Origin: Escherichia coli | GTDB taxonomy: Bacteria > Pseudomonadota > Gammaproteobacteria > Enterobacterales > Enterobacteriaceae | DNA: 64,000 nt | Strand: one strand, 5' to 3' | NCBI RefSeq assembly: GCF_044324785.1 | Contig: NZ_CP172127.1 | Shown: piece by piece, positions 14,949-63,526 of the stretch | How the letters are laid out: the number at the start of each line of letters is the position of its first letter | Position numbering within the stretch: position 1 is the first letter of the stretch | Notes under the pieces: generated by a model | The model's database searches: none | What the model was told of the DNA's origin: nothing | The model's input: the letters and a program-made list of their open reading frames with translations, nothing else | Translations under genes and position numbers: made by a program

Positions 14949-16466
14949 ATGTCTGAACGAGAAACACGGGGAGCCAATGAGGCTATTGATTTTAACGATG
15001 AACTGAGAAATCGCCGCGAAAAACTGGCGGCACTACGTCAGCAAGGTGTGGCGTTTCCCAATGATTTTCGCCGCGACCATACCTCTGACAAGTTGCACGA
15101 AGAGTTTGATGCGAAGGATAACCAGGAACTGGAATCCTTAAACATTGAAGTCTCGGTTGCTGGCCGAATGATGACCCGTCGTATCATGGGGAAAGCCTCC
15201 TTTGTAACGTTGCAGGATGTCGGTGGCCGTATTCAACTGTACGTTGCAAGAGATAGCCTGCCAGAAGGTGTTTATAACGATCAGTTTAAAAAATGGGATC
15301 TGGGTGACATTATCGGTGCCCGCGGTACGCTGTTTAAGACGCAAACGGGTGAGCTTTCCATTCACTGTACTGAGCTGCGCCTGCTGACTAAAGCACTACG
15401 TCCTTTACCAGATAAATTCCATGGTCTGCAGGATCAGGAAGTCCGTTATCGTCAACGTTATCTGGACCTCATCGCTAACGATAAATCCCGTCAAACGTTT
15501 GTTGTCCGTTCAAAAATTCTGGCCGCTATCCGTCAGTTCATGGTCGCGCGCGGCTTTATGGAAGTAGAAACCCCGATGATGCAGGTAATTCCAGGTGGGG
15601 CATCTGCTCGCCCGTTTATTACCCATCATAACGCTCTGGATTTAGATATGTACCTGCGTATCGCGCCGGAGCTGTATCTGAAACGTCTGGTTGTAGGCGG
15701 TTTTGAACGGGTATTCGAAATCAACCGTAACTTCCGTAATGAAGGTATTTCTGTTCGCCATAATCCTGAGTTCACAATGATGGAACTCTACATGGCGTAT
15801 GCGGATTACCACGATTTGATTGAACTGACGGAGTCACTGTTCCGCACCCTGGCACAAGAGGTTCTGGGTACCACTAAAGTCACTTATGGCGAGCATGTGT
15901 TTGATTTCGGCAAACCGTTTGAAAAACTCACCATGCGCGAAGCAATCAAAAAATATCGTCCAGAAACCGATATGGCCGACCTGGATAATTTTGATGCTGC
16001 TAAAGCATTAGCTGAATCTATCGGAATTACGGTAGAGAAAAGCTGGGGTCTGGGACGTATTGTTACGGAGATCTTTGATGAAGTGGCAGAAGCACATCTG
16101 ATTCAGCCAACCTTTATTACGGAATATCCGGCAGAAGTGTCCCCGCTGGCGCGCCGTAATGATGTTAACCCGGAAATCACCGACCGTTTTGAATTCTTCA
16201 TCGGTGGTCGTGAAATCGGTAATGGTTTTAGCGAATTAAACGATGCAGAAGATCAGGCTGAACGTTTCCAGGAACAGGTTAACGCTAAAGCTGCAGGTGA
16301 CGACGAAGCCATGTTCTATGACGAAGATTACGTGACTGCGCTGGAATATGGTCTGCCGCCAACCGCTGGTCTGGGTATTGGTATCGACCGAATGATTATG
16401 CTGTTTACAAACAGTCATACTATTCGCGACGTTATTCTCTTCCCGGCGATGCGCCCACAGAAATAA
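14949..16466 (+). CDS. lysU: Lysine-tRNA ligase, inducible isoform
   Basis: 505 aa from MSERETRG; class II aaRS; assigned as lysU rather than lysS by genomic context. Confidence 0.9.
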
Positions 16467-16480
16467 ATTTCACTTTAATG

Positions 16481-16515
16481 AACGAAGCAGTCAGGCGACT
16501 GCTTCGTTCGTCGTT
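16481..16515. terminator. Hairpin between convergent lysU and ghoT
   Basis: aacgaagcagtc aggc gactgcttcgtt perfect 12-bp stem. Confidence 0.4.
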
Positions 16516-16584
16516 CCGCAAATCCAGTTTTGAGGAGAGACGCTTCGTTTCACGATAACCAGCGGGTCCACTCAACTACAGCTC

Positions 16585-16758
16585 CTAAAAGAGAGAAAAA
16601 AGTAATGCCACAGGCAGACTCATTGGCCAGGTTATTCCTACCAGGAATGCACTAAGTAAACGAATATGTGTTTTCTCATGTGAGATAAACCAGATAATGA
16701 CAAAGGATATGTTCACACCAATCACATAAAAAATTAATATTTTAGAGAATAGTGCCAT
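16585..16758 (-). CDS. ghoT: GhoT membrane-lytic toxin (type V toxin-antitoxin system)
   Basis: 57-aa ORF translated by hand from the minus strand: MALFSKILIFYVIGVNISFVIIWFISHEKTHIRLLSAFLVGITWPMSLPVALLFSLF; below the ORF-track size cut-off. Confidence 0.8.
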   Translation of the reverse strand: MALFSKILIFYVIGVNISFVIIWFISHEKTHIRLLSAFLVGITWPMSLPVALLFSLF

Positions 16759-16785
16759 TTTTTATGTTCTTCTTATCCTTCCTGG

Positions 16786-17082
16786 CTACTTGTAAAACTG
16801 ACGGAAATAGTCATCAACTGTCATAATGTTGAGGTCAAAGTCAATATCCGGTAAGTCTAAGCATTTAAGCCTGATTAAATCTTCGATTTCACTTGCGGCT
16901 AATGATGTCGTTATTGCGAAGGAATTTTCATTCAATTGTCGTGGTATCCCATATTCATCAGCCACGATAGAGGAGAAATTCATATCATGCATCAATGATC
17001 TTAACCTTAAGAACACTGAGGAATAAGATGATGGATAATCAAAAGAAACAACATAAGTATTGAACTTGTTTTTACCTTCCAT
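16786..17082 (-). CDS. ghoS: GhoS antitoxin, endoribonuclease specific for ghoT mRNA (YjdK)
   Basis: 98 aa, immediately upstream of ghoT on the same strand. Confidence 0.8.
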   Translation of the reverse strand: MEGKNKFNTYVVSFDYPSSYSSVFLRLRSLMHDMNFSSIVADEYGIPRQLNENSFAITTSLAASEIEDLIRLKCLDLPDIDFDLNIMTVDDYFRQFYK

Positions 17083-17310
17083 AATATGACTCCTATCAAT
17101 TTTAAACGCTCTGGGGACGCAAAACTTATTAACCCCGAATGATGATTCTCATATAGGAGATATTCTTTTTTTTTTGCTCAGTAAAGGGGATGACTTGGGA
17201 CAAAAAAACGCTCTCTCTGACCATTCTTTGTGCATCCCCCTACCCTTCAGATGCTCACCTGCATCACACCGCGGAGAGCATGAAAAATATCGTGACTCTG
17301 TACTCTCCCA

Positions 17311-17583
17311 TCAACTGCGAATATCATCATACTCCCGTGTTTTATCAAATTCGTGTTTCGCAAATGGGCATAGTGGGATAATTTTTCGTTTTTCCCGACG
17401 CATTTTTTCCACGACTTTCGCAACCAGCTGTTTACCAATCCCCTGCCCTTTCAGGCTTTCATCGACATCGGTATGTTCGATAATCGCTAAATTCTCTCCG
17501 GTCGGCACAAAGACAATTTCAGCGATTTGCTTGCCCTGTTCGTCATTAATGTAAAATTTATTGTGGCCTTCGCGTATTTCCAT
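17311..17583 (-). CDS. yjdJ: GNAT-family acetyltransferase YjdJ
   Basis: 90 aa; K-12 position. Confidence 0.8.
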
Positions 17584-17594
17584 TTTACCCTCGC

Positions 17595-17825
17595 TTATTT
17601 ATGACGGTATTTCAGCGCGCCGCTCGGGCACGTATCAATCACTTTAACCACAGTGGCAACGTCGACTTCATCCGGCATGATCCACGGCTTTCGTTTGAGA
17701 TTAAATAACTTGCCGTTGCCACGTACGCAATTGCCAGAATGCTGACATATCGCAGTATTGAAATAGACATCGATCTTTTCGCCGGTATAACAGCGATAAC
17801 CCCCGTCCAGTAGCGCCCGATCCAT
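17595..17825 (-). CDS. yjdI: Small Cys-rich protein YjdI (DUF1271)
   Basis: 76 aa with conserved cysteines; K-12 position. Confidence 0.8.
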
Positions 17826-18005: not shown

Positions 18006-19637
18006 ATGAGACATTCATTGCCCTACCGCATGTTACGCAAACGTCCGATGAAATTGAGTACCACAGTGATCTTAATGGTCAGCGCGGTACTGTTCTCGGT
18101 GCTATTGGTGGTGCATCTGATTTACTTCTCGCAAATCAGTGATATGACGCGAGACGGGCTAGCCAACAAGGCACTGGCAGTAGCGCGTACCCTCGCCGAC
18201 TCGCCGGAAATCCGTCAGGGCTTGCAGAAAAAACCGCAGGAGAGTGGAATCCAGGCCATCGCGGAAGCCGTGCGCAAACGCAACGATCTGCTATTTATTG
18301 TCGTTACCGATATGCAAAGTCTTCGCTACTCGCATCCTGAAGCCCAGCGTATTGGTCAGCCATTTAAAGGTGATGACATCCTTAAAGCGCTGAATGGCGA
18401 AGAAAATGTCGCTATCAATCGCGGTTTTCTGGCGCAGGCTTTACGCGTATTTACCCCCATCTACGATGAAAATCATAAACAAATTGGCGTGGTGGCGATC
18501 GGCCTTGAGTTAAGTCGCGTGACCCAACAGATCAATGACAGTCGCTGGAGCATTATCTGGTCGGTACTATTTGGCATGCTGGTCGGACTGATTGGCACTT
18601 GCATTCTGGTTAAGGTACTGAAAAAAATCCTTTTCGGCCTGGAACCCTACGAAATCTCCACGCTGTTTGAGCAACGCCAGGCCATGTTGCAGTCTATCAA
18701 AGAAGGCGTCGTTGCCGTGGACGATCGCGGCGAGGTCACGCTAATCAACGATGCCGCACAAGAATTGCTGAATTACCGTAAGTCGCAGGACGATGAGAAA
18801 CTGTCGACGCTAAGCCACTCGTGGTCACAGGTGGTAGATGTCTCGGAAGTGTTACGCGACGGTACCCCGCGCCGCGACGAAGAGATTACGATTAAAGATC
18901 GGCTATTACTGATCAACACCGTTCCGGTGCGCAGTAATGGCGTTATCATCGGTGCCATTTCAACCTTCAGGGACAAAACTGAAGTACGTAAACTGATGCA
19001 GCGACTCGACGGTCTGGTCAACTATGCTGACGCACTTCGTGAACGATCCCACGAATTTATGAATAAATTGCATGTGATTCTCGGATTATTGCATCTGAAG
19101 AGTTATAAGCAGTTGGAAGATTACATTCTCAAAACAGCCAATAACTATCAGGAAGAGATTGGCTCTCTGCTGGGTAAGATCAAATCTCCGGTTATCGCTG
19201 GTTTTTTAATCAGCAAGATTAACCGCGCGACCGATTTAGGCCATACGCTGATTTTAAACAGTGAAAGCCAGCTGCCAGACAGCGGCAGTGAGGACCAGGT
19301 CGCGACGCTGATTACCACATTGGGAAATCTGATAGAAAACGCGCTGGAAGCATTAGGGCCGGAACCCGGTGGCGAAATTAGCGTAACATTGCACTACCGT
19401 CACGGCTGGCTGCACTGTGAAGTTAACGATGATGGACCGGGGATCGCACCCGATAAAATCGATCACATTTTTGACAAAGGTGTCTCGACAAAAGGAAGCG
19501 AGCGAGGCGTCGGTTTAGCACTTGTCAAACAACAGGTAGAAAATCTCGGCGGCAGCATCGCCGTGGAATCGGAACCCGGGATTTTCACACAATTTTTTGT
19601 CCAGATACCCTGGGACGGGGAGAGGTCGAACAGATGA
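18006..19637 (+). CDS. dcuS: C4-dicarboxylate sensor histidine kinase
   Basis: 543 aa; recognised DcuS sequence; overlaps dcuR start. Confidence 0.95.
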   Translation: MRHSLPYRMLRKRPMKLSTTVILMVSAVLFSVLLVVHLIYFSQISDMTRDGLANKALAVARTLADSPEIRQGLQKKPQESGIQAIAEAVRKRNDLLFIVVTDMQSLRYSHPEAQRIGQPFKGDDILKALNGEENVAINRGFLAQALRVFTPIYDENHKQIGVVAIGLELSRVTQQINDSRWSIIWSVLFGMLVGLIGTCILVKVLKKILFGLEPYEISTLFEQRQAMLQSIKEGVVAVDDRGEVTLINDAAQELLNYRKSQDDEKLSTLSHSWSQVVDVSEVLRDGTPRRDEEITIKDRLLLINTVPVRSNGVIIGAISTFRDKTEVRKLMQRLDGLVNYADALRERSHEFMNKLHVILGLLHLKSYKQLEDYILKTANNYQEEIGSLLGKIKSPVIAGFLISKINRATDLGHTLILNSESQLPDSGSEDQVATLITTLGNLIENALEALGPEPGGEISVTLHYRHGWLHCEVNDDGPGIAPDKIDHIFDKGVSTKGSERGVGLALVKQQVENLGGSIAVESEPGIFTQFFVQIPWDGERSNR

Positions 19638-24110: not shown

Positions 24111-24761
24111 ATGACCCGCACACTCAAGCCGTTAATTCTTAACACCGGCGCACTGGCGCTAACGTTAATCCTGATTTATACCGGCATTTCGGCCCATGAC
24201 AAACTCACCTGGCTGATGGAAGTGACACCGGTGATTATTGTCGTGCCGCTACTGCTTGCCACCGCCAGACGTTATCCGTTAACGCCGCTGCTCTATACGC
24301 TCATTTTCTTTCACGCCATCATCCTGATGGTCGGCGGACAATACACCTACGCGAAAGTCCCCGTTGGTTTTGAGGTGCAGGAATGGCTGGGGTTGAGTCG
24401 TAATCCGTATGACAAGCTGGGGCACTTTTTCCAGGGGCTGGTGCCTGCACTGGTGGCACGAGAAATTCTCGTTCGCGGGATGTACGTGCGCGGACGTAAA
24501 ATGGTGGCGTTCCTGGTCTGCTGCGTGGCGCTGGCGATAAGCGCGATGTATGAATTAATCGAGTGGTGGGCGGCGCTGGCAATGGGCCAGGGAGCGGATG
24601 ATTTTCTCGGCACCCAGGGCGACCAGTGGGACACGCAATCCGATATGTTCTGCGCGCTGCTTGGCGCATTAACGACGGTGATATTCCTCGCTCGCTTTCA
24701 TTGCCGCCAGCTACGGCGCTTTGGCTTAATCACCAGAGCGCCGGAAGCGATTACCCCTTAA
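24111..24761 (+). CDS. yjdF: Inner membrane protein YjdF (DUF2238)
   Basis: 216 aa hydrophobic protein; stop codon shares the tetranucleotide TTAA with the melA stop on the other strand. Confidence 0.8.
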   Translation: MTRTLKPLILNTGALALTLILIYTGISAHDKLTWLMEVTPVIIVVPLLLATARRYPLTPLLYTLIFFHAIILMVGGQYTYAKVPVGFEVQEWLGLSRNPYDKLGHFFQGLVPALVAREILVRGMYVRGRKMVAFLVCCVALAISAMYELIEWWAALAMGQGADDFLGTQGDQWDTQSDMFCALLGALTTVIFLARFHCRQLRRFGLITRAPEAITP

Positions 24762-26113
24762 CGGTGCAACCAGCCAGGCAGCCAGTCGCCGTGGGCAGCA
24801 ATCAAGTCGTCAACAAGAGCATATATTTCGTCAATGCCCAGCACGGCGGCAGTATGCGGGTCCATCATCGCGGCGTGGTAAACACGGTCGCGATTTTCCG
24901 TAAGAATGGCTTCGGTCAGCAGCGTCTGTACGTTGATGTTGGTTTGCATCAGAGCGGCCAGATGCGAAGGTAGCGTACCGACTTTGGTCGGCTGAATGCC
25001 ATTAGCATCAACCAGACAGGCTACTTCCACGCAACATCCTTGTGGCAGGTTATCAATCAAACCATCGTTACGGACGTTGCCGTAAATCACACTCGGCTCG
25101 CCAGTCCAGATAGCGTTCATGATTGTGCTGGCATATTCCCGTGACGGTTTAATATCAATCCGGGAGGCGTTTTTATACTCCTCCAGCTCTTTATGCCAGT
25201 TCGCCAGCTGCTCGACGCAGCGTTTCGGGTACTCATCCAGCGGTACTTTATAACGCTCAATCAAATCCTCACGACCTGGCTTAATAAACCACGGTGTGTA
25301 CTCAGCAAAATGTTCTGACGATTCCGTGACGAAGTAGCCCAGCTTTTTGAACATTTCGTAGCGCACAATATTCTGGCAGCGAGTATTGCCATGAATATTC
25401 GGCTTCGGTGCCTGCCCTGCTTCATAAGCCGCCAGCAGTTCCGGGTAGAGATTCACGTAACTGCCGTCGGCGGTTTTGCGCTCCAGTTCCAGGTAAAACG
25501 CCATATGGTTGATACCTGCGCAACGGTAACGTAGCGTAGCCGGGTCGATATTGAGGTCACGCGCCAGCTCTTCCGCCGTTCCCTGCACCGAATGGCACAA
25601 CCCTACCTGTTTGATATGCGGATAGTGGGCATACATCGCCCAGGTATTCATCGCCATTGGGTTAACGTAGTTGAGCATGGTGGCATCGGGGCAGACTTCC
25701 GTCATGTCCTCGCAAATTTGCCACAGATGCGGAATGGTACGTAGCGCGCGCATAATACCGCCCGGCCCCAACGTATCGGCAATGGTTTGTTCCAGACCAT
25801 GCCGCTTACAGACCTCGAAATCAGTCACCGTGCAAGGTTCATAACCGCCAATCTGAAATGCCACCACCACAAAATCGGCATCCTGTAAGGCTTCTTTCTG
25901 TTGGGTGTGGCAGGTGATTTTGCCGCTGGCCCCTGCTGAATCCATCAGCTTACGCACCACAATGTGCGACTCTTCCAGGCGGGTGGGATCAATGTCCATC
26001 AGGGCAATATGCGCCGTTTTCAGCGCCTCGCGATGGAACACATCACCAAGAATATTTTTAACGAAAATCGTCGAACCAGCGCCGATAAATGTAATTTTGG
26101 GTGCAGACATCAT
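24758..26113 (-). CDS. melA: Alpha-galactosidase (melibiase), GH4
   Basis: 451 aa; N-terminal NAD-binding GAGS motif. Confidence 0.9.
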   Translation of the reverse strand: MMSAPKITFIGAGSTIFVKNILGDVFHREALKTAHIALMDIDPTRLEESHIVVRKLMDSAGASGKITCHTQQKEALQDADFVVVAFQIGGYEPCTVTDFEVCKRHGLEQTIADTLGPGGIMRALRTIPHLWQICEDMTEVCPDATMLNYVNPMAMNTWAMYAHYPHIKQVGLCHSVQGTAEELARDLNIDPATLRYRCAGINHMAFYLELERKTADGSYVNLYPELLAAYEAGQAPKPNIHGNTRCQNIVRYEMFKKLGYFVTESSEHFAEYTPWFIKPGREDLIERYKVPLDEYPKRCVEQLANWHKELEEYKNASRIDIKPSREYASTIMNAIWTGEPSVIYGNVRNDGLIDNLPQGCCVEVACLVDANGIQPTKVGTLPSHLAALMQTNINVQTLLTEAILTENRDRVYHAAMMDPHTAAVLGIDEIYALVDDLIAAHGDWLPGWLHR

Positions 26114-34762: not shown

Positions 34763-35854
34763 ATGCGTTTTCTGCGCAGACCAATATCGCTGCGCCAACG
34801 GCTGATATTGACCATCGGGGCCATTTTGTTGGTGTTTGAGCTGATCAGCGTCTTCTGGCTATGGCATGAAAGTACCGAGCAGATTCAGCTGTTTGAGCAG
34901 GCGCTACGCGACAATCGCAACAACGATCGCCACATCATGCGTGAGATCCGCGAGGCGGTCGCCAGCCTGATTGTCCCCGGCGTCTTTATGGTCAGCCTGA
35001 CGCTATTTATCTGCTATCAGGCGGTACGCCGCATCACCCGGCCGCTGGCGGAGCTGCAAAAAGAGCTGGAAGCGCGCACCGCCGACAATTTAACGCCTAT
35101 TGCCATTCACAGTGCCACCCTCGAAATCGAAGCGGTGGTTTCGGCGTTAAACGATCTGGTCAGTCGCCTGACCAGCACGCTGGATAACGAAAGGTTGTTT
35201 ACCGCTGACGTCGCGCACGAACTGCGAACGCCACTGGCGGGGGTGCGTTTGCATCTGGAACTGCTGGCGAAAACGCATCACATTGATGTAGCACCGTTAG
35301 TGGCACGGCTTGATCAGATGATGGAGAGTGTCTCCCAGCTACTGCAACTGGCGCGTGCCGGACAGTCATTTTCTTCCGGGAATTATCAACATGTAAAACT
35401 GCTGGAAGATGTCATTCTCCCCTCGTATGACGAACTCAGTACCATGCTCGACCAGCGCCAGCAAACCCTGCTATTGCCAGAGAGCGCCGCCGACATCACC
35501 GTTCAGGGTGATGCAACCCTGCTGCGGATGTTATTGCGAAACCTGGTAGAAAATGCCCATCGTTACAGCCCGCAAGGCAGCAACATTATGATTAAGCTGC
35601 AAGAAGATGGCGGAGCGGTCATGGCCGTTGAAGATGAAGGACCGGGTATTGATGAGAGTAAATGCGGGGAGTTGAGTAAAGCGTTTGTACGTATGGACAG
35701 CCGTTATGGCGGGATTGGTCTGGGGTTAAGTATTGTCAGCCGCATTACACAGTTGCATCACGGGCAGTTTTTCCTGCAAAACCGGCAAGAAACTTCCGGC
35801 ACGCGGGCCTGGGTACGGCTGAAGAAAGATCAGAACGTGGCAAACCAGATATAA
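34763..35854 (+). CDS. basS: Sensor kinase BasS (PmrB)
   Basis: 363 aa from the ATG at MRFLRRP; ORF track begins at an upstream TTG (34754). Confidence 0.85.
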   Translation: MRFLRRPISLRQRLILTIGAILLVFELISVFWLWHESTEQIQLFEQALRDNRNNDRHIMREIREAVASLIVPGVFMVSLTLFICYQAVRRITRPLAELQKELEARTADNLTPIAIHSATLEIEAVVSALNDLVSRLTSTLDNERLFTADVAHELRTPLAGVRLHLELLAKTHHIDVAPLVARLDQMMESVSQLLQLARAGQSFSSGNYQHVKLLEDVILPSYDELSTMLDQRQQTLLLPESAADITVQGDATLLRMLLRNLVENAHRYSPQGSNIMIKLQEDGGAVMAVEDEGPGIDESKCGELSKAFVRMDSRYGGIGLGLSIVSRITQLHHGQFFLQNRQETSGTRAWVRLKKDQNVANQI

Positions 35855-35919
35855 AGAAAGCTGCTGACCACCAGCACGCTGAACACGGTAGTTAAACTTT
35901 CATAAACACGGTTTTTCAT
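35830..35919 (-). CDS. pmrR: PmrR small membrane protein (29 aa)
   Basis: Hand-translated minus-strand ORF MKNRVYESLTTVFSVLVVSSFLYIWFATF; overlaps the basS 3' end antisense. Confidence 0.6.
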   Translation of the reverse strand: MKNRVYESLTTVFSVLVVSSFLYIWFATF

Positions 35920-36030
35920 TGCACTCTCCTCCGTTAACCTGGAGGAGAGTATGCGCGTCAGAGATTAAGTGAACCTTAAGAGTTCAATTGGCCTGATAAG
36001 ACAGCGTCACATCAGGCCATCCGTTTCAGC

Positions 36031-41637: not shown

Positions 41638-41655
41638 TTGTATTGTGATCGGTAA

Positions 41656-41731
41656 GCCGGATAAGGCGCTCGCGCCGCATCCGGCAACGATGCCGACAGC
41701 CTGATGCGACGCTGACCGCGTCTTATCAGGC
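41656..41731. repeat. REP/BIME palindromic repeat cluster
   Basis: gccggataaggcg...cgccgcatccggc and gcctgatgcgacgctg...cgtcttatcaggc imperfect palindromes. Confidence 0.5.
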
Positions 41732-41796
41732 TTCCCTCTCATCTGTATAAATTTCGAACTACACTTAACTGGCTTCTCTTAACTGAGGTCACCATC

Positions 41797-44202: not shown

Positions 44203-44209
44203 ATCGTAA

Positions 44210-44292
44210 GTCGGATAAGACGCCACGGCGTCGCATCCGACAATGTGCAGACGTTGATGCCGGATGCGGTGCAAGCACCTTATCCGGCCTAC
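44210..44292. repeat. REP/BIME palindromic repeat cluster
   Basis: gtcggataagacgccacggcgtcgcatccgac and gccggatgcggtgcaagcaccttatccggc. Confidence 0.5.
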
Positions 44293-61378: not shown

Positions 61379-63526
61379 ATGAAAAAAGTCGTCACGGTTT
61401 GCCCCTATTGCGCATCAGGTTGCAAAATCAACCTGGTCGTCGATAACGGCAAAATCGTCCGGGCGGAGGCAGCGCAGGGGAAAACCAACCAGGGTACCCT
61501 GTGTCTGAAGGGTTATTATGGCTGGGATTTCATTAACGATACCCAGATCCTGACCCCGCGCCTGAAAACCCCCATGATCCGTCGCCAGCGTGGCGGCAAA
61601 CTCGAACCTGTTTCCTGGGATGAGGCACTGAATTACGTTGCCGAGCGCCTGAGCGCCATCAAAGAGAAGTACGGTCCGGATGCCATCCAGACGACCGGCT
61701 CCTCGCGTGGTACGGGTAACGAAACCAACTATGTAATGCAAAAATTTGCGCGCGCCGTTATTGGTACCAATAACGTTGACTGCTGCGCTCGTGTCTGACA
61801 CGGCCCATCGGTTGCAGGTCTGCACCAATCGGTCGGTAATGGCGCAATGAGCAATGCTATTAACGAAATTGATAATACCGATTTAGTGTTCGTTTTCGGG
61901 TACAACCCGGCGGATTCCCACCCAATCGTGGCGAACCACGTAATTAACGCTAAACGTAACGGGGCGAAAATTATCGTCTGCGATCCGCGCAAAATTGAAA
62001 CCGCGCGCATTGCTGACATGCACATTGCACTGAAAAACGGCTCGAACATCGCGCTGTTGAATGCGATGGGTCATGTCATTATTGAAGAAAACCTGTACGA
62101 CAAAGCTTTCGTCGCTTCCCGTACAGAAGGCTTTGAAGAGTATCGTAAAATCGTTGAAGGCTACACGCCGGAGTCGGTTGAAGATATCACCGGCGTCAGC
62201 GCCAGTGAGATTCGTCAGGCGGCGCGGATGTATGCCCAGGCGAAAAGCGCCGCCATCCTGTGGGGCATGGGTGTAACCCAGTTCTACCAGGGCGTGGAAA
62301 CCGTGCGTTCTCTGACCAGCCTCGCGATGCTGACTGGTAACCTCGGTAAGCCGCATGCGGGTGTAAACCCGGTTCGTGGTCAGAACAACGTGCAGGGTGC
62401 CTGCGATATGGGCGCGCTGCCGGATACGTATCCGGGATACCAGTACGTGAAAGATCCGGCTAACCGCGAGAAATTCGCCAAAGCCTGGGGCGTGGAAAAC
62501 CTGCCTGCTCATACCGGCTATCGCATCAGCGAGCTGCCGCACCGCGCAGCGCATGGCGAAGTGCGTGCCGCGTACATTATGGGCGAAGATCCGCTGCAAA
62601 CTGACGCGGAGCTGTCGGCAGTACGTAAAGCCTTTGAAGATCTGGAACTGGTCATCGTTCAGGACATCTTTATGACCAAAACCGCGTCGGCTGCGGATGT
62701 TATTTTACCATCAACGTCGTGGGGCGAGCATGAAGGCGTGTTTACTGCGGCTGACCGTGGCTTCCAGCGTTTCTTCAAGGCGGTTGAACCGAAGTGGGAT
62801 CTGAAAACGGACTGGCAAATCATCAGTGAAATTGCCACTCGTATGGGTTATCCGATGCACTACAACAACACCCAGGAGATCTGGGATGAGTTGCGTCATC
62901 TGTGCCCGGATTTCTACGGTGCGACTTACGAGAAAATGGGCGAACTGGGCTTCATTCAGTGGCCTTGCCGCGATACTTCAGATGCCGATCAGGGGACTTC
63001 TTATCTGTTTAAAGAGAAGTTTGATACCCCGAACGGTCTGGCGCAGTTCTTCACCTGCGACTGGGTAGCGCCAATCGACAAACTCACCGACGAGTACCCG
63101 ATGGTACTGTCAACGGTGCGTGAAGTTGGTCACTACTCTTGCCGTTCGATGACCGGTAACTGTGCGGCACTGGCGGCGCTGGCTGATGAACCTGGCTACG
63201 CACAAATCAATACCGAAGACGCCAAACGTCTGGGTATTGAAGATGAGGCATTGGTTTGGGTGCACTCGCGTAAAGGCAAAATTATCACCCGTGCGCAGGT
63301 CAGCGATCGTCCGAACAAAGGGGCGATTTACATGACCTACCAGTGGTGGATTGGTGCCTGTAACGAGCTGGTTACCGAAAACTTAAGCCCGATTACGAAA
63401 ACGCCGGAATACAAATACTGCGCCGTGCGCGTCGAGCCGATCGCCGATCAGCGCGCCGCCGAGCAGTACGTGATTGACGAGTACAACAAGTTGAAAACTC
63501 GCCTGCGCGAAGCGGCACTGGCGTAA
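61379..63526 (+). CDS. fdhF: Formate dehydrogenase H, selenocysteine-containing (in-frame UGA at 61796-61798 decoded as Sec)
   Basis: ORF track splits the gene at TGA 61796-61798, but the same frame continues to 63526 giving 715 codons; N-terminal Cys cluster CPYCASGC. Confidence 0.9.
61796..61840 (+). other. UGA-Sec codon plus SECIS stem-loop of fdhF
   Basis: tgacacggcccatcggttgcaggtctgcaccaatcggtcggtaatggcg immediately 3' of the in-frame UGA, matching the classical fdhF SECIS as I recall it. Confidence 0.7.

What the first reader, a model, noticed from the sequence alone, without database searches (positions are those of the whole stretch)
16585..17082. ghoS-ghoT type V toxin-antitoxin operon, toxin gene missed by the ORF track
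Hand translation of the minus strand gives the 57-aa hydrophobic GhoT immediately downstream of the 98-aa GhoS, separated by 27 bp. This is a small chromosomal toxin-antitoxin pair sitting between lysU and yjdJ that automated ORF calling with a 60-aa cut-off would miss.
Basis: partly seen in the sequence, partly recalled or inferred. Interest (0 to 1): 0.3.

Follow-up and report, generated by a model that had tools for sequence, protein, structure and literature searches.

The report
Known E. coli ghoS-ghoT toxin-antitoxin operon

Summary
On the minus strand, a 98-aa ORF (16786..17082) is followed after 27 bp by a 57-aa hydrophobic ORF (16585..16758), between lysU and yjdJ. The first matches Pfam GhoS (2.7e-40) and is 97/98 identical to the solved GhoS structure 2LLZ. 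The second matches Pfam GhoT/OrtT (8.9e-26) and is 100% identical to K-12 GhoT. The same locus is in 5342 of 5426 complete E. coli genomes, and RefSeq annotates it as ghoS/ghoT in every record I inspected. Features tied to the published mechanism are intact: GhoS R28 with wild-type L25 and M31, a Cas2-like fold, GhoT F38 and two hydrophobic segments, three MqsR 5'-GCU sites in ghoS and none in ghoT, and a spacer identical to K-12. The only protein difference from K-12 is GhoS Y32H, a common natural allele at a hypervariable position. The toxin gene falls below a 60-aa ORF cut-off only because it is 57 aa long; public annotation does not miss it. Co-transcription and RNase activity cannot be tested in silico and rest on the K-12 literature. 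Verdict: confirmed, correctly interpreted, already known, low interest. Minor by-products: GhoS is a very small family, R28 is not conserved in its distant members, and some of those members have the gene order reversed or have lost ghoT.

The parts
16786..17082 (-). ghoS CDS (98 aa + stop), type V antitoxin, Cas2-like endoribonuclease
16585..16758 (-). ghoT CDS (57 aa + stop), small hydrophobic membrane toxin
   Evidence: ORF. PF10753 at 8.9e-26. 57/57 identical to K-12 b4559, with one synonymous nucleotide difference. GRAVY 1.5, with two hydrophobic segments separated by the polar loop SHEKTH.
16759..16785 (-). 27-nt ghoS-ghoT spacer CCAGGAAGGATAAGAAGAACATAAAAA. It holds only purine-rich, distal Shine-Dalgarno-like motifs for ghoT.
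   Evidence: Identical to K-12. No stable hairpin or terminator in or around it.
17090..17094 (-). ghoS Shine-Dalgarno AGGAG, 7 nt before the ATG
   Evidence: Read directly from the sequence.
16999..17001 (-). Codon for GhoS R28, reported as the most important residue for RNase activity. The nearby L25 and M31 are wild type, so this is not the toxic ArT variant.
   Evidence: Translation. Role of the residues from PMC4010927.
16987..16989 (-). Codon 32 of GhoS: His here, Tyr in K-12. This is the only amino-acid difference from K-12 in the operon.
   Evidence: Both alleles are seen on at least 1000 contigs. The column is hypervariable in the family alignment A1.
16860..16962 (-). Span holding the three 5'-GCU (MqsR) sites of ghoS, at CDS nt 121-123, 213-215 and 221-223 (window 16960-16962, 16868-16870, 16860-16862). 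ghoT has none.
   Evidence: Counts. Same positions in K-12. Matches the published statement of three sites in ghoS and none in ghoT (PMC4803016).
16645..16647 (-). Codon for GhoT F38; the F38R substitution abolishes toxicity.
   Evidence: Translation. Role from PMC4344625.
16480..16509 (.). Perfect 13-bp stem with a 4-nt loop (dG -21.4 kcal/mol on either strand) between the convergent ghoT and lysU stop codons. It is the presumed shared transcript-end structure, but has no U-tract on either strand.
   Evidence: The consensus scan does not score it as an intrinsic terminator. Its function is inferred.
17083..17310 (-). 228-nt yjdJ-ghoS intergenic region, presumed to hold the ghoST promoter (not located). 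It contains an A10 run (17166..17175), which is A8 in K-12.
   Evidence: There is no convincing sigma-70 consensus: the only minus-strand hit lies inside yjdJ, and hit numbers are at chance level.

Best explanation
This is the canonical chromosomal ghoS-ghoT (ghoST) operon of E. coli, the founding and essentially only characterised type V toxin-antitoxin system. Shown here: both genes are intact, on the same strand, 27 nt apart and in the conserved position between lysU and yjdJ; the products are (nearly) identical to the experimentally studied K-12 proteins. Taken from the literature for K-12 and inferred to apply here: the two genes are made as one ghoST transcript with ghoS at the 5' end. 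GhoS, a stable Cas2-fold endoribonuclease, cleaves the ghoT part of the mRNA, so the toxin is not translated. Under stress the type II toxin MqsR, which cuts at 5'-GCU, destroys the ghoS part (three GCU sites) but not ghoT (none), so GhoT is made. GhoT is a 57-aa protein with two predicted transmembrane segments that inserts into the inner membrane, dissipates the membrane potential and ATP, and slows growth (the 'ghost cell' phenotype).
Against: Nothing argues against the identity. The limits concern the mechanism. No promoter could be located by consensus, and the post-ghoT hairpin lacks a U-tract, so the transcript boundaries are inferred. The absence of GCU in a 174-nt AT-rich gene is expected by chance about 10% of the time, so on its own it is weak evidence. 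R28 is not conserved in distant GhoS homologues, so the published catalytic assignment may not hold for the whole family. The primary papers (Wang et al. 2012, 2013) were not available here, so mechanism statements rest on later papers that cite them. The physiological importance of the MqsR-GhoT cascade is described as 'not without controversies' (PMC11783221).
Confidence: 0.94

Rival explanations
1. The genes are ghoS and ghoT, but the toxin-antitoxin label overstates their biology. In this view GhoT is a small membrane protein that is toxic only when over-expressed, and GhoS is an RNase or regulator with other targets and a role independent of GhoT.
For: GhoS over-production is reported to reduce 20 other transcripts (purine and pyrimidine genes) besides ghoT (PMC4010927). 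Two of the five distant GhoS loci examined show no adjacent ghoT, and two others carry a frameshifted ghoT beside an intact GhoS. R28 is not conserved across the family. There is no PADLOC defence-system match. Reviews note doubt about the physiological activation of chromosomal TA toxins (PMC11783221; PMC10643148).
Against: In E. coli both genes are kept intact and adjacent in about 98% of complete genomes. GhoT is 100% conserved between this strain and K-12, with only one synonymous change. Published work reports that GhoS neutralises GhoT and that deleting ghoT has phenotypes.
Confidence: 0.1
2. The copy in this window is inactive or decaying (a pseudo-TA). For example, the Y32H change next to the catalytic region might disable GhoS or alter its specificity.
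For: Y32H lies one residue from M31 and near L25 and R28; mutating L25 and M31 turns GhoS into a broad-specificity toxin (PMC4010927). Truncated or frameshifted GhoS and GhoT variants do exist in databases.
Against: Both ORFs are full length with intact starts and stops. The H32 allele is seen on at least 1000 contigs, as common as the cap allows, and is present in complete genomes such as strain 1190. Position 32 is hypervariable in the family (H, Y, S, L, A, F, T). A disabled antitoxin beside an intact toxin would be counter-selected.
Confidence: 0.03
3. GhoT is controlled like a type I toxin, by an antisense or nearby small RNA rather than by GhoS.
For: GhoT resembles type I toxins: it is small and hydrophobic with two transmembrane segments (PMC3827094). 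A few promoter-like hexamer pairs lie on the + strand inside the operon.
Against: Those promoter-like hits are at the chance level (4 found against 3.4 expected). No Rfam family matches in or near the locus. The published evidence supports control by the GhoS protein.
Confidence: 0.02
4. The two ORFs are chance open frames in an AT-rich intergenic region.
For: The region is AT-rich (about 35% GC), and short ORFs are common.
Against: Pfam E-values of 1e-26 to 1e-40, a solved structure of the same protein, and conservation across 5342 genomes with mostly synonymous differences from K-12 (6 of 7 nucleotide changes synonymous).
Confidence: 0.01

Closest known systems
E. coli K-12 ghoS (b4128, formerly yjdK) and ghoT (b4559, formerly yjdO): the type V toxin-antitoxin system GhoT/GhoS
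   Same: Same genes at the same chromosomal position (dcuS - yjdI - yjdJ - ghoS - ghoT - lysU - dtpC - cadA). GhoT is 100% identical and GhoS is 97/98 identical. The 27-nt spacer is identical, the GCU sites are identical, and the downstream hairpin is the same.
   Different: GhoS has Y32H, a common natural allele. There are six nucleotide differences in ghoS (five synonymous) and one synonymous difference in ghoT. The A-run upstream of ghoS is A10 rather than A8.
OrtT (YdcX), the orphan toxin paralogue of GhoT
   Same: Same Pfam family, PF10753 Toxin_GhoT_OrtT. Also 57 aa with two predicted transmembrane segments and a conserved F38 (PMC4344625).
   Different: OrtT has no antitoxin partner, is not neutralised by GhoS, and its mRNA has two GCU sites (PMC4344625). 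The gene in this window is GhoT itself: it is 100% identical to K-12 GhoT and sits next to ghoS.
Cas2 and VapD endoribonucleases (ferredoxin-like fold)
   Different: Only 9-17% sequence identity, with no CRISPR context and no Pfam Cas2 hit. GhoS acts as an antitoxin, whereas VapD is a toxin.
Type I membrane toxins (Hok, TisB and similar)
   Same: Small hydrophobic inner-membrane peptides that collapse membrane potential and ATP (PMC3827094).
   Different: Type I toxins are repressed by antisense RNA. Here the antagonist is a protein RNase encoded upstream on the same strand, and there is no sign of an antisense RNA.

Membership tests
GhoS antitoxin (Pfam PF11080) | Sequence match to the family profile above the curated threshold | tested here: met
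   136.7 bits against a cut-off of 21, E = 2.7e-40, covering profile positions 6-93 of 94.
GhoS antitoxin (Pfam PF11080) | Near identity to the experimentally characterised protein (YjdK/GhoS, PDB 2LLZ) | tested here: met
   97/98 identical; the only difference is Y32H.
GhoS antitoxin (Pfam PF11080) | Cas2-like ferredoxin fold | tested here: met
GhoS antitoxin (Pfam PF11080) | Catalytic R28 present, with L25 and M31 not mutated to the toxic ArT form | tested here: met
   The sequence reads ...F24 L25 R26 L27 R28 S29 L30 M31 H32.... The residue roles come from PMC4010927.
GhoS antitoxin (Pfam PF11080) | Sequence-specific endoribonuclease activity on ghoT mRNA | not testable with these tools
   Needs an in-vitro cleavage assay. 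Reported for K-12 GhoS (PMC3827094; PMC4010927).
GhoT/OrtT toxin (Pfam PF10753) | Sequence match to the family profile above the curated threshold, and identity to GhoT rather than OrtT | tested here: met
   90.4 bits against a cut-off of 22.1, E = 8.9e-26, over the full-length profile. 57/57 identical to K-12 b4559.
GhoT/OrtT toxin (Pfam PF10753) | [quoted passage not shown] | tested here: met
   GRAVY 1.5. 19-residue hydropathy windows peak at 2.6 (N-terminal half) and 1.8 (C-terminal half), with a minimum at the SHEKTH loop. F38 is present (PMC4344625). No dedicated transmembrane predictor was available.
GhoT/OrtT toxin (Pfam PF10753) | Membrane damage, ATP depletion and growth arrest on expression | not testable with these tools
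   This is an experimental property, reported for K-12 GhoT.
Type V toxin-antitoxin system (ghoST operon) | Antitoxin gene immediately upstream of the toxin gene on the same strand with a short spacer | tested here: met
   ghoS 16786..17082 and ghoT 16585..16758, both on the minus strand, with a 27-nt spacer identical to K-12.
Type V toxin-antitoxin system (ghoST operon) | Co-transcription of ghoS and ghoT as one mRNA | tested here: inconclusive
   The sequence is consistent with it: there is no hairpin or terminator in the spacer and a strong hairpin only after ghoT. No promoter could be located. Public operon datasets were unavailable or did not list the genes. Papers describe a single ghoST transcript in K-12.
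Type V toxin-antitoxin system (ghoST operon) | Differential MqsR sensitivity: 5'-GCU sites in ghoS and none in ghoT | tested here: met
   Three sites in ghoS (nt 121, 213, 221) and none in ghoT or the spacer, the same as K-12 and as published. Caveat: zero GCU in ghoT arises in 10% of shuffles.
Type V toxin-antitoxin system (ghoST operon) | The antitoxin protein is stable and acts on the toxin mRNA, not by binding the toxin protein | not testable with these tools
   Experimental property; literature only.
Type I toxin-antitoxin system (considered) | Antisense or overlapping small RNA antitoxin | tested here: not met
   No Rfam match in or near the locus. Plus-strand promoter-like sites are at chance frequency. 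RNA-seq would be needed to exclude an undescribed RNA.
Catalogued anti-phage defence system (PADLOC; considered) | Match to a defence-system protein model | tested here: not met
   No PADLOC hit for either protein at E <= 0.01.

The most novel reading that the evidence does not exclude
This reading concerns the GhoS family, not this locus. The published 'R28-dependent cleavage of ghoT mRNA' may not be the conserved function of GhoS proteins. Among 1.84 billion representative proteins the family has only about a dozen full-length divergent members. In them R28 is replaced by K, T, N, D, S or H, whereas the motif FSxIVADxxGIPRxL (F36, D42, G45, L50 invariant) is conserved. Gene order is reversed (ghoT then ghoS) in one distant locus, ghoT is frameshifted beside an intact GhoS in another, and two loci show no ghoT at all. 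The conserved surface around D42-R48 may therefore be the real functional site, and GhoS may have a role that does not need GhoT. For the window itself, the only non-excluded twist is that the H32 allele, next to the ArT-forming positions L25 and M31, subtly changes substrate range.
Probability: 0.12. Interest if true: 0.3.

Novelty: already known. Interest (0 to 1): 0.06.

Why it matters
It matters little as a discovery. ghoST was described in 2012, is a textbook example (the type V class), and is annotated in RefSeq genomes. The useful point is methodological: a 60-aa ORF cut-off hides real, functional small genes such as this 57-aa toxin, so scans that rely on such a cut-off should add a small-protein step (for example profile searches of ORFs of 30 aa or more). 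The by-products may interest TA specialists, but they do not change the verdict on this finding. They are the very narrow distribution of GhoS, the non-conservation of the reported key catalytic residue, and the variable pairing with ghoT in distant relatives.

Tried and rejected
(1) The primary papers (Wang et al. 2012, PMC3514572 / PMID 22941047; Wang et al. 2013, PMC3620836) are not held. Mechanism statements were therefore taken from later open-access papers that cite them.

(2) Genome-wide operon and TSS datasets for co-transcription gave nothing usable. Conway 2014 has no supplements held, the SMRT-Cappable-seq supplements do not mention ghoS, ghoT, yjdK or yjdJ, and Thomason 2015 is not held.

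(3) The consensus promoter/terminator scan found no minus-strand promoter in the yjdJ-ghoS intergenic region and no canonical terminator, with hit counts at chance level. A TAAAAT hexamer 17099..17104 was considered as a -10 box and rejected, because it has no usable -35 and would start transcription inside the ghoS Shine-Dalgarno.

(4) NCBIfam has no HMM hit for either protein. This is uninformative, since PGAP still names them.

(5) One search was my own coordinate error: on the minus strand I trimmed the start codon instead of the stop. Its 'not in the collection' result for GhoS is void, and it was redone correctly.

(6) The plasmid search found ghoST only on records that are really chromosomes or very large replicons labelled as plasmids (4.8-4.9 Mb, 0.37-1.0 Mb), apart from one 94-kb record. 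The idea that ghoST is a mobile plasmid cassette was rejected.

(7) An antisense 66-aa ORF (16826..17026, + strand) inside ghoS was treated as a chance frame; I did not search it against any database.

(8) I did not run the very expensive metagenome and genome-collection scans, because identity was already settled.

Full report
OBSERVATION. An ATG-initiated 98-aa ORF lies at 16786..17082, and an ATG-initiated 57-aa, very hydrophobic ORF lies at 16585..16758. They are separated by 27 nt, CCAGGAAGGATAAGAAGAACATAAAAA. The neighbours are as stated. Lysyl-tRNA synthetase lysU ends at 16466 on the + strand and is convergent with the 57-aa ORF. The GNAT acetyltransferase yjdJ (17311..17583), yjdI (17595..17825) and dcuS (18006..19637) follow on the other side. 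A 57-aa ORF falls below a 60-aa listing threshold, so the remark about the ORF track is mechanically correct.

IDENTITY. The 98-aa protein matches Pfam PF11080 (GhoS) at E = 2.7e-40, and the 57-aa protein matches PF10753 (Toxin_GhoT_OrtT) at E = 8.9e-26, both far above the curated cut-offs. The 98-aa protein is 97/98 identical to the solved structure 2LLZ (YjdK = GhoS), differing only at Y32H. Compared with K-12 MG1655, GhoT is 57/57 identical with one synonymous nucleotide change. ghoS has six nucleotide changes, five of them synonymous. The 27-nt spacer is identical, and the 118-nt ghoT-lysU intergenic region differs at one base. The 921-bp locus is found in 5342 of 5426 complete E. coli genomes, almost always once and on the chromosome. 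The best-matching records, like the three regions I examined (strain 1190, K-12 and 042), annotate it as 'type V toxin-antitoxin system endoribonuclease antitoxin GhoS' and 'toxin GhoT'. The window itself is ordinary E. coli, collinear with strain 042 at 99.0% identity from 7092 to 38000.

ANATOMY AND MECHANISM: WHAT IS INFERRED. The following comes from the K-12 literature. The pair is transcribed as one ghoST mRNA with ghoS at the 5' end (PMC4803016; PMC11783221). GhoS cleaves ghoT mRNA and so blocks toxin synthesis (PMC3827094; PMC8230891). MqsR degrades the ghoS part and enriches ghoT under stress. GhoT damages the inner membrane and lowers ATP. Because the proteins, spacer and GCU pattern are the same here, I infer the same mechanism with high confidence.

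CAVEATS. No promoter could be located by consensus, and the post-ghoT hairpin has no U-tract, so the scan calls no terminator. Transcript ends are therefore not established. The lack of GCU in ghoT is expected by chance in about 10% of shuffles. The physiological weight of the MqsR cascade is described as controversial. Neither protein matches a PADLOC defence model.

THE ONE DIFFERENCE FROM K-12. GhoS H32 lies next to M31, and I considered whether it might alter function. It is a common natural allele: both the Y32 and H32 sequences are recorded on at least 1000 contigs, the counting cap, and H32 is the allele of E. coli strain 1190. In an alignment of the window protein with the twelve other full-length family members I used, column 32 is hypervariable: H, Y, S, L, A, F, T. 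I therefore regard it as neutral.

FAMILY CONTEXT (BY-PRODUCT). A profile-free search of 1.84 billion representative proteins found only 36 clusters related to GhoS. Most are fragments or frameshift products of the E. coli protein, and about a dozen are full-length divergent homologues at 26-58% identity. This agrees with reviews that call type V a single-instance class (PMC8230891). In the alignment, F36, D42, G45 and L50 are invariant and the motif FSxIVADxxGIPRxL stands out. R28, next to the well-anchored L27 column, is replaced by K, T, N, D, S or H. I inspected five loci that encode four distant homologues, and they differ. One (L004) has a 57-aa PF10753 gene immediately upstream of ghoS, so the order is reversed, and it follows a decarboxylase-permease pair. 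Two (L007 and L008, which carry the same 58%-identical GhoS) have a ghoT split by a frameshift beside an intact ghoS, and at least L007 follows a decarboxylase-permease pair that I recognise, from memory of the E. coli PotE sequence, as speF-potE. Two (L005, L006) show no ghoT-like ORF in the short contigs available. The paralogous locus next to potE occurs in 7 of 5426 complete E. coli genomes, where PGAP already annotates it as ghoS plus a GhoT/OrtT family toxin. These points do not change the verdict on the window. They are recorded as the basis of the 'novel case'.

COMPARISON WITH THE KNOWN AND VERDICT. The locus is not merely like ghoST; it is ghoST. Every membership feature testable in silico is met. 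The untestable ones (RNase activity, membrane damage, antitoxin stability, co-transcription) are experimental properties already reported for proteins identical or 99% identical to these. Rival readings get little support: a nominal TA whose real biology differs, an inactive copy, type I-like RNA control, or chance ORFs. Novelty: already known. Interest: low. The practical lesson is that a 60-aa ORF threshold hides real small genes.

Noticed in passing
window 3970..4338 (+) and 4369..4839 (+), within the island at about 1..7000: There is a second toxin-antitoxin pair in the window: CbeA antitoxin (PF06154, 7.8e-55) and CbtA toxin (PF06755, 2.4e-59), a type IV system. It sits in a cryptic-prophage-like island with DUF932, antirestriction, RadC, DUF987, DUF5983 and DUF4942 genes upstream of cadC. 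The island is only 91-93% identical to the corresponding island of E. coli 042, whereas the flanking core is 99% identical.
   Followed up: partly
window about 24758..24761 (junction of yjdF 24111..24761 + and melA 24758..26113 -): melB (the melibiose permease) is absent. In K-12, 1.66 kb containing melB lies between melA and yjdF. Here, as in E. coli 042, the two ORFs abut and overlap by 4 nt, and yjdF is 216 aa rather than 209 aa. Other close genomes match the 22-kb query in two pieces and carry about 1.64 kb more.
   Followed up: partly
window 16987..16989 (-): The GhoS Y32H allele is adjacent to M31 and near L25 and R28, the positions whose mutation turns GhoS into the toxin ArT (PMC4010927). 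It is a common natural allele, seen on at least 1000 contigs, at a hypervariable family position.
   Followed up: yes
window 17166..17175: The homopolymer run upstream of ghoS is A10 on the minus strand, against A8 in K-12. This is a length polymorphism in the presumed promoter/leader region. Any effect on expression is unknown.
   Followed up: no
window about 16450..17200: The ghoST cassette and its upstream region have about 35-36% GC, against 45-53% in the flanking genes. This suggests old horizontal acquisition. I did not examine the roughly 1.5% of E. coli genomes that lack the locus.
   Followed up: no
window 16480..16509: A perfect 13-bp hairpin is shared by the convergent lysU and ghoT genes, with no U-tract on either strand. 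The terminator scan does not call it. It may be a bidirectional transcript-end or stabilising structure.
   Followed up: partly
alignment A1; loci L004-L008: The GhoS family is very small: 36 clusters at 50% identity among 1.84 billion representatives. The reported key catalytic residue R28 is not conserved in distant members, whereas FSxIVADxxGIPRxL is. L004 has the order ghoT then ghoS. L007 and L008 have a frameshifted ghoT beside an intact ghoS. L005 and L006 show no ghoT. In L004 and L007 the pair lies directly after a decarboxylase-permease pair and next to an EamA transporter gene.
   Followed up: partly
L007:2300-3000 and hits H36-H42: A rare second ghoST-like locus, with a GhoS 58% identical to the main one, lies directly after a decarboxylase-permease pair that looks like speF-potE. 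It occurs in 7 of 5426 complete E. coli genomes, and PGAP annotates it as ghoS plus a GhoT/OrtT family toxin. In the copies I read (L007, L008) the toxin gene is frameshifted.
   Followed up: partly
window 14949..16466 (+): PGAP labels the lysyl-tRNA synthetase gene next to ghoT as 'lysS' in non-K-12 genomes. By synteny with K-12 it is lysU. This is an annotation naming inconsistency, not a biological feature.
   Followed up: yes
window 35823..35988 (-), 61791..61845 (+), 41655..41732 (+), 44209..44289 (-): Rfam hits elsewhere in the window are STnc630 sRNA (178 bits; in strain 042, with which the window is collinear here, the small gene pmrR lies at the same coordinates), a SECIS element (87 bits, presumably in fdhF, which is annotated under matches to this part of the window), and two naRNA4/REP-type elements. 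All are expected E. coli features.
   Followed up: no
plasmid collection hits H21-H29: Most 'plasmid' records that carry ghoST are 0.37-4.9 Mb and are evidently chromosomes or chromosome fragments filed as plasmids; one 94-kb record (NZ_CP048307.1) also carries the pair. A Salmonella plasmid (NZ_CP110932.1) carries a GhoT/OrtT-family toxin that is 69% identical at the DNA level, and the match does not extend into ghoS.
   Followed up: no
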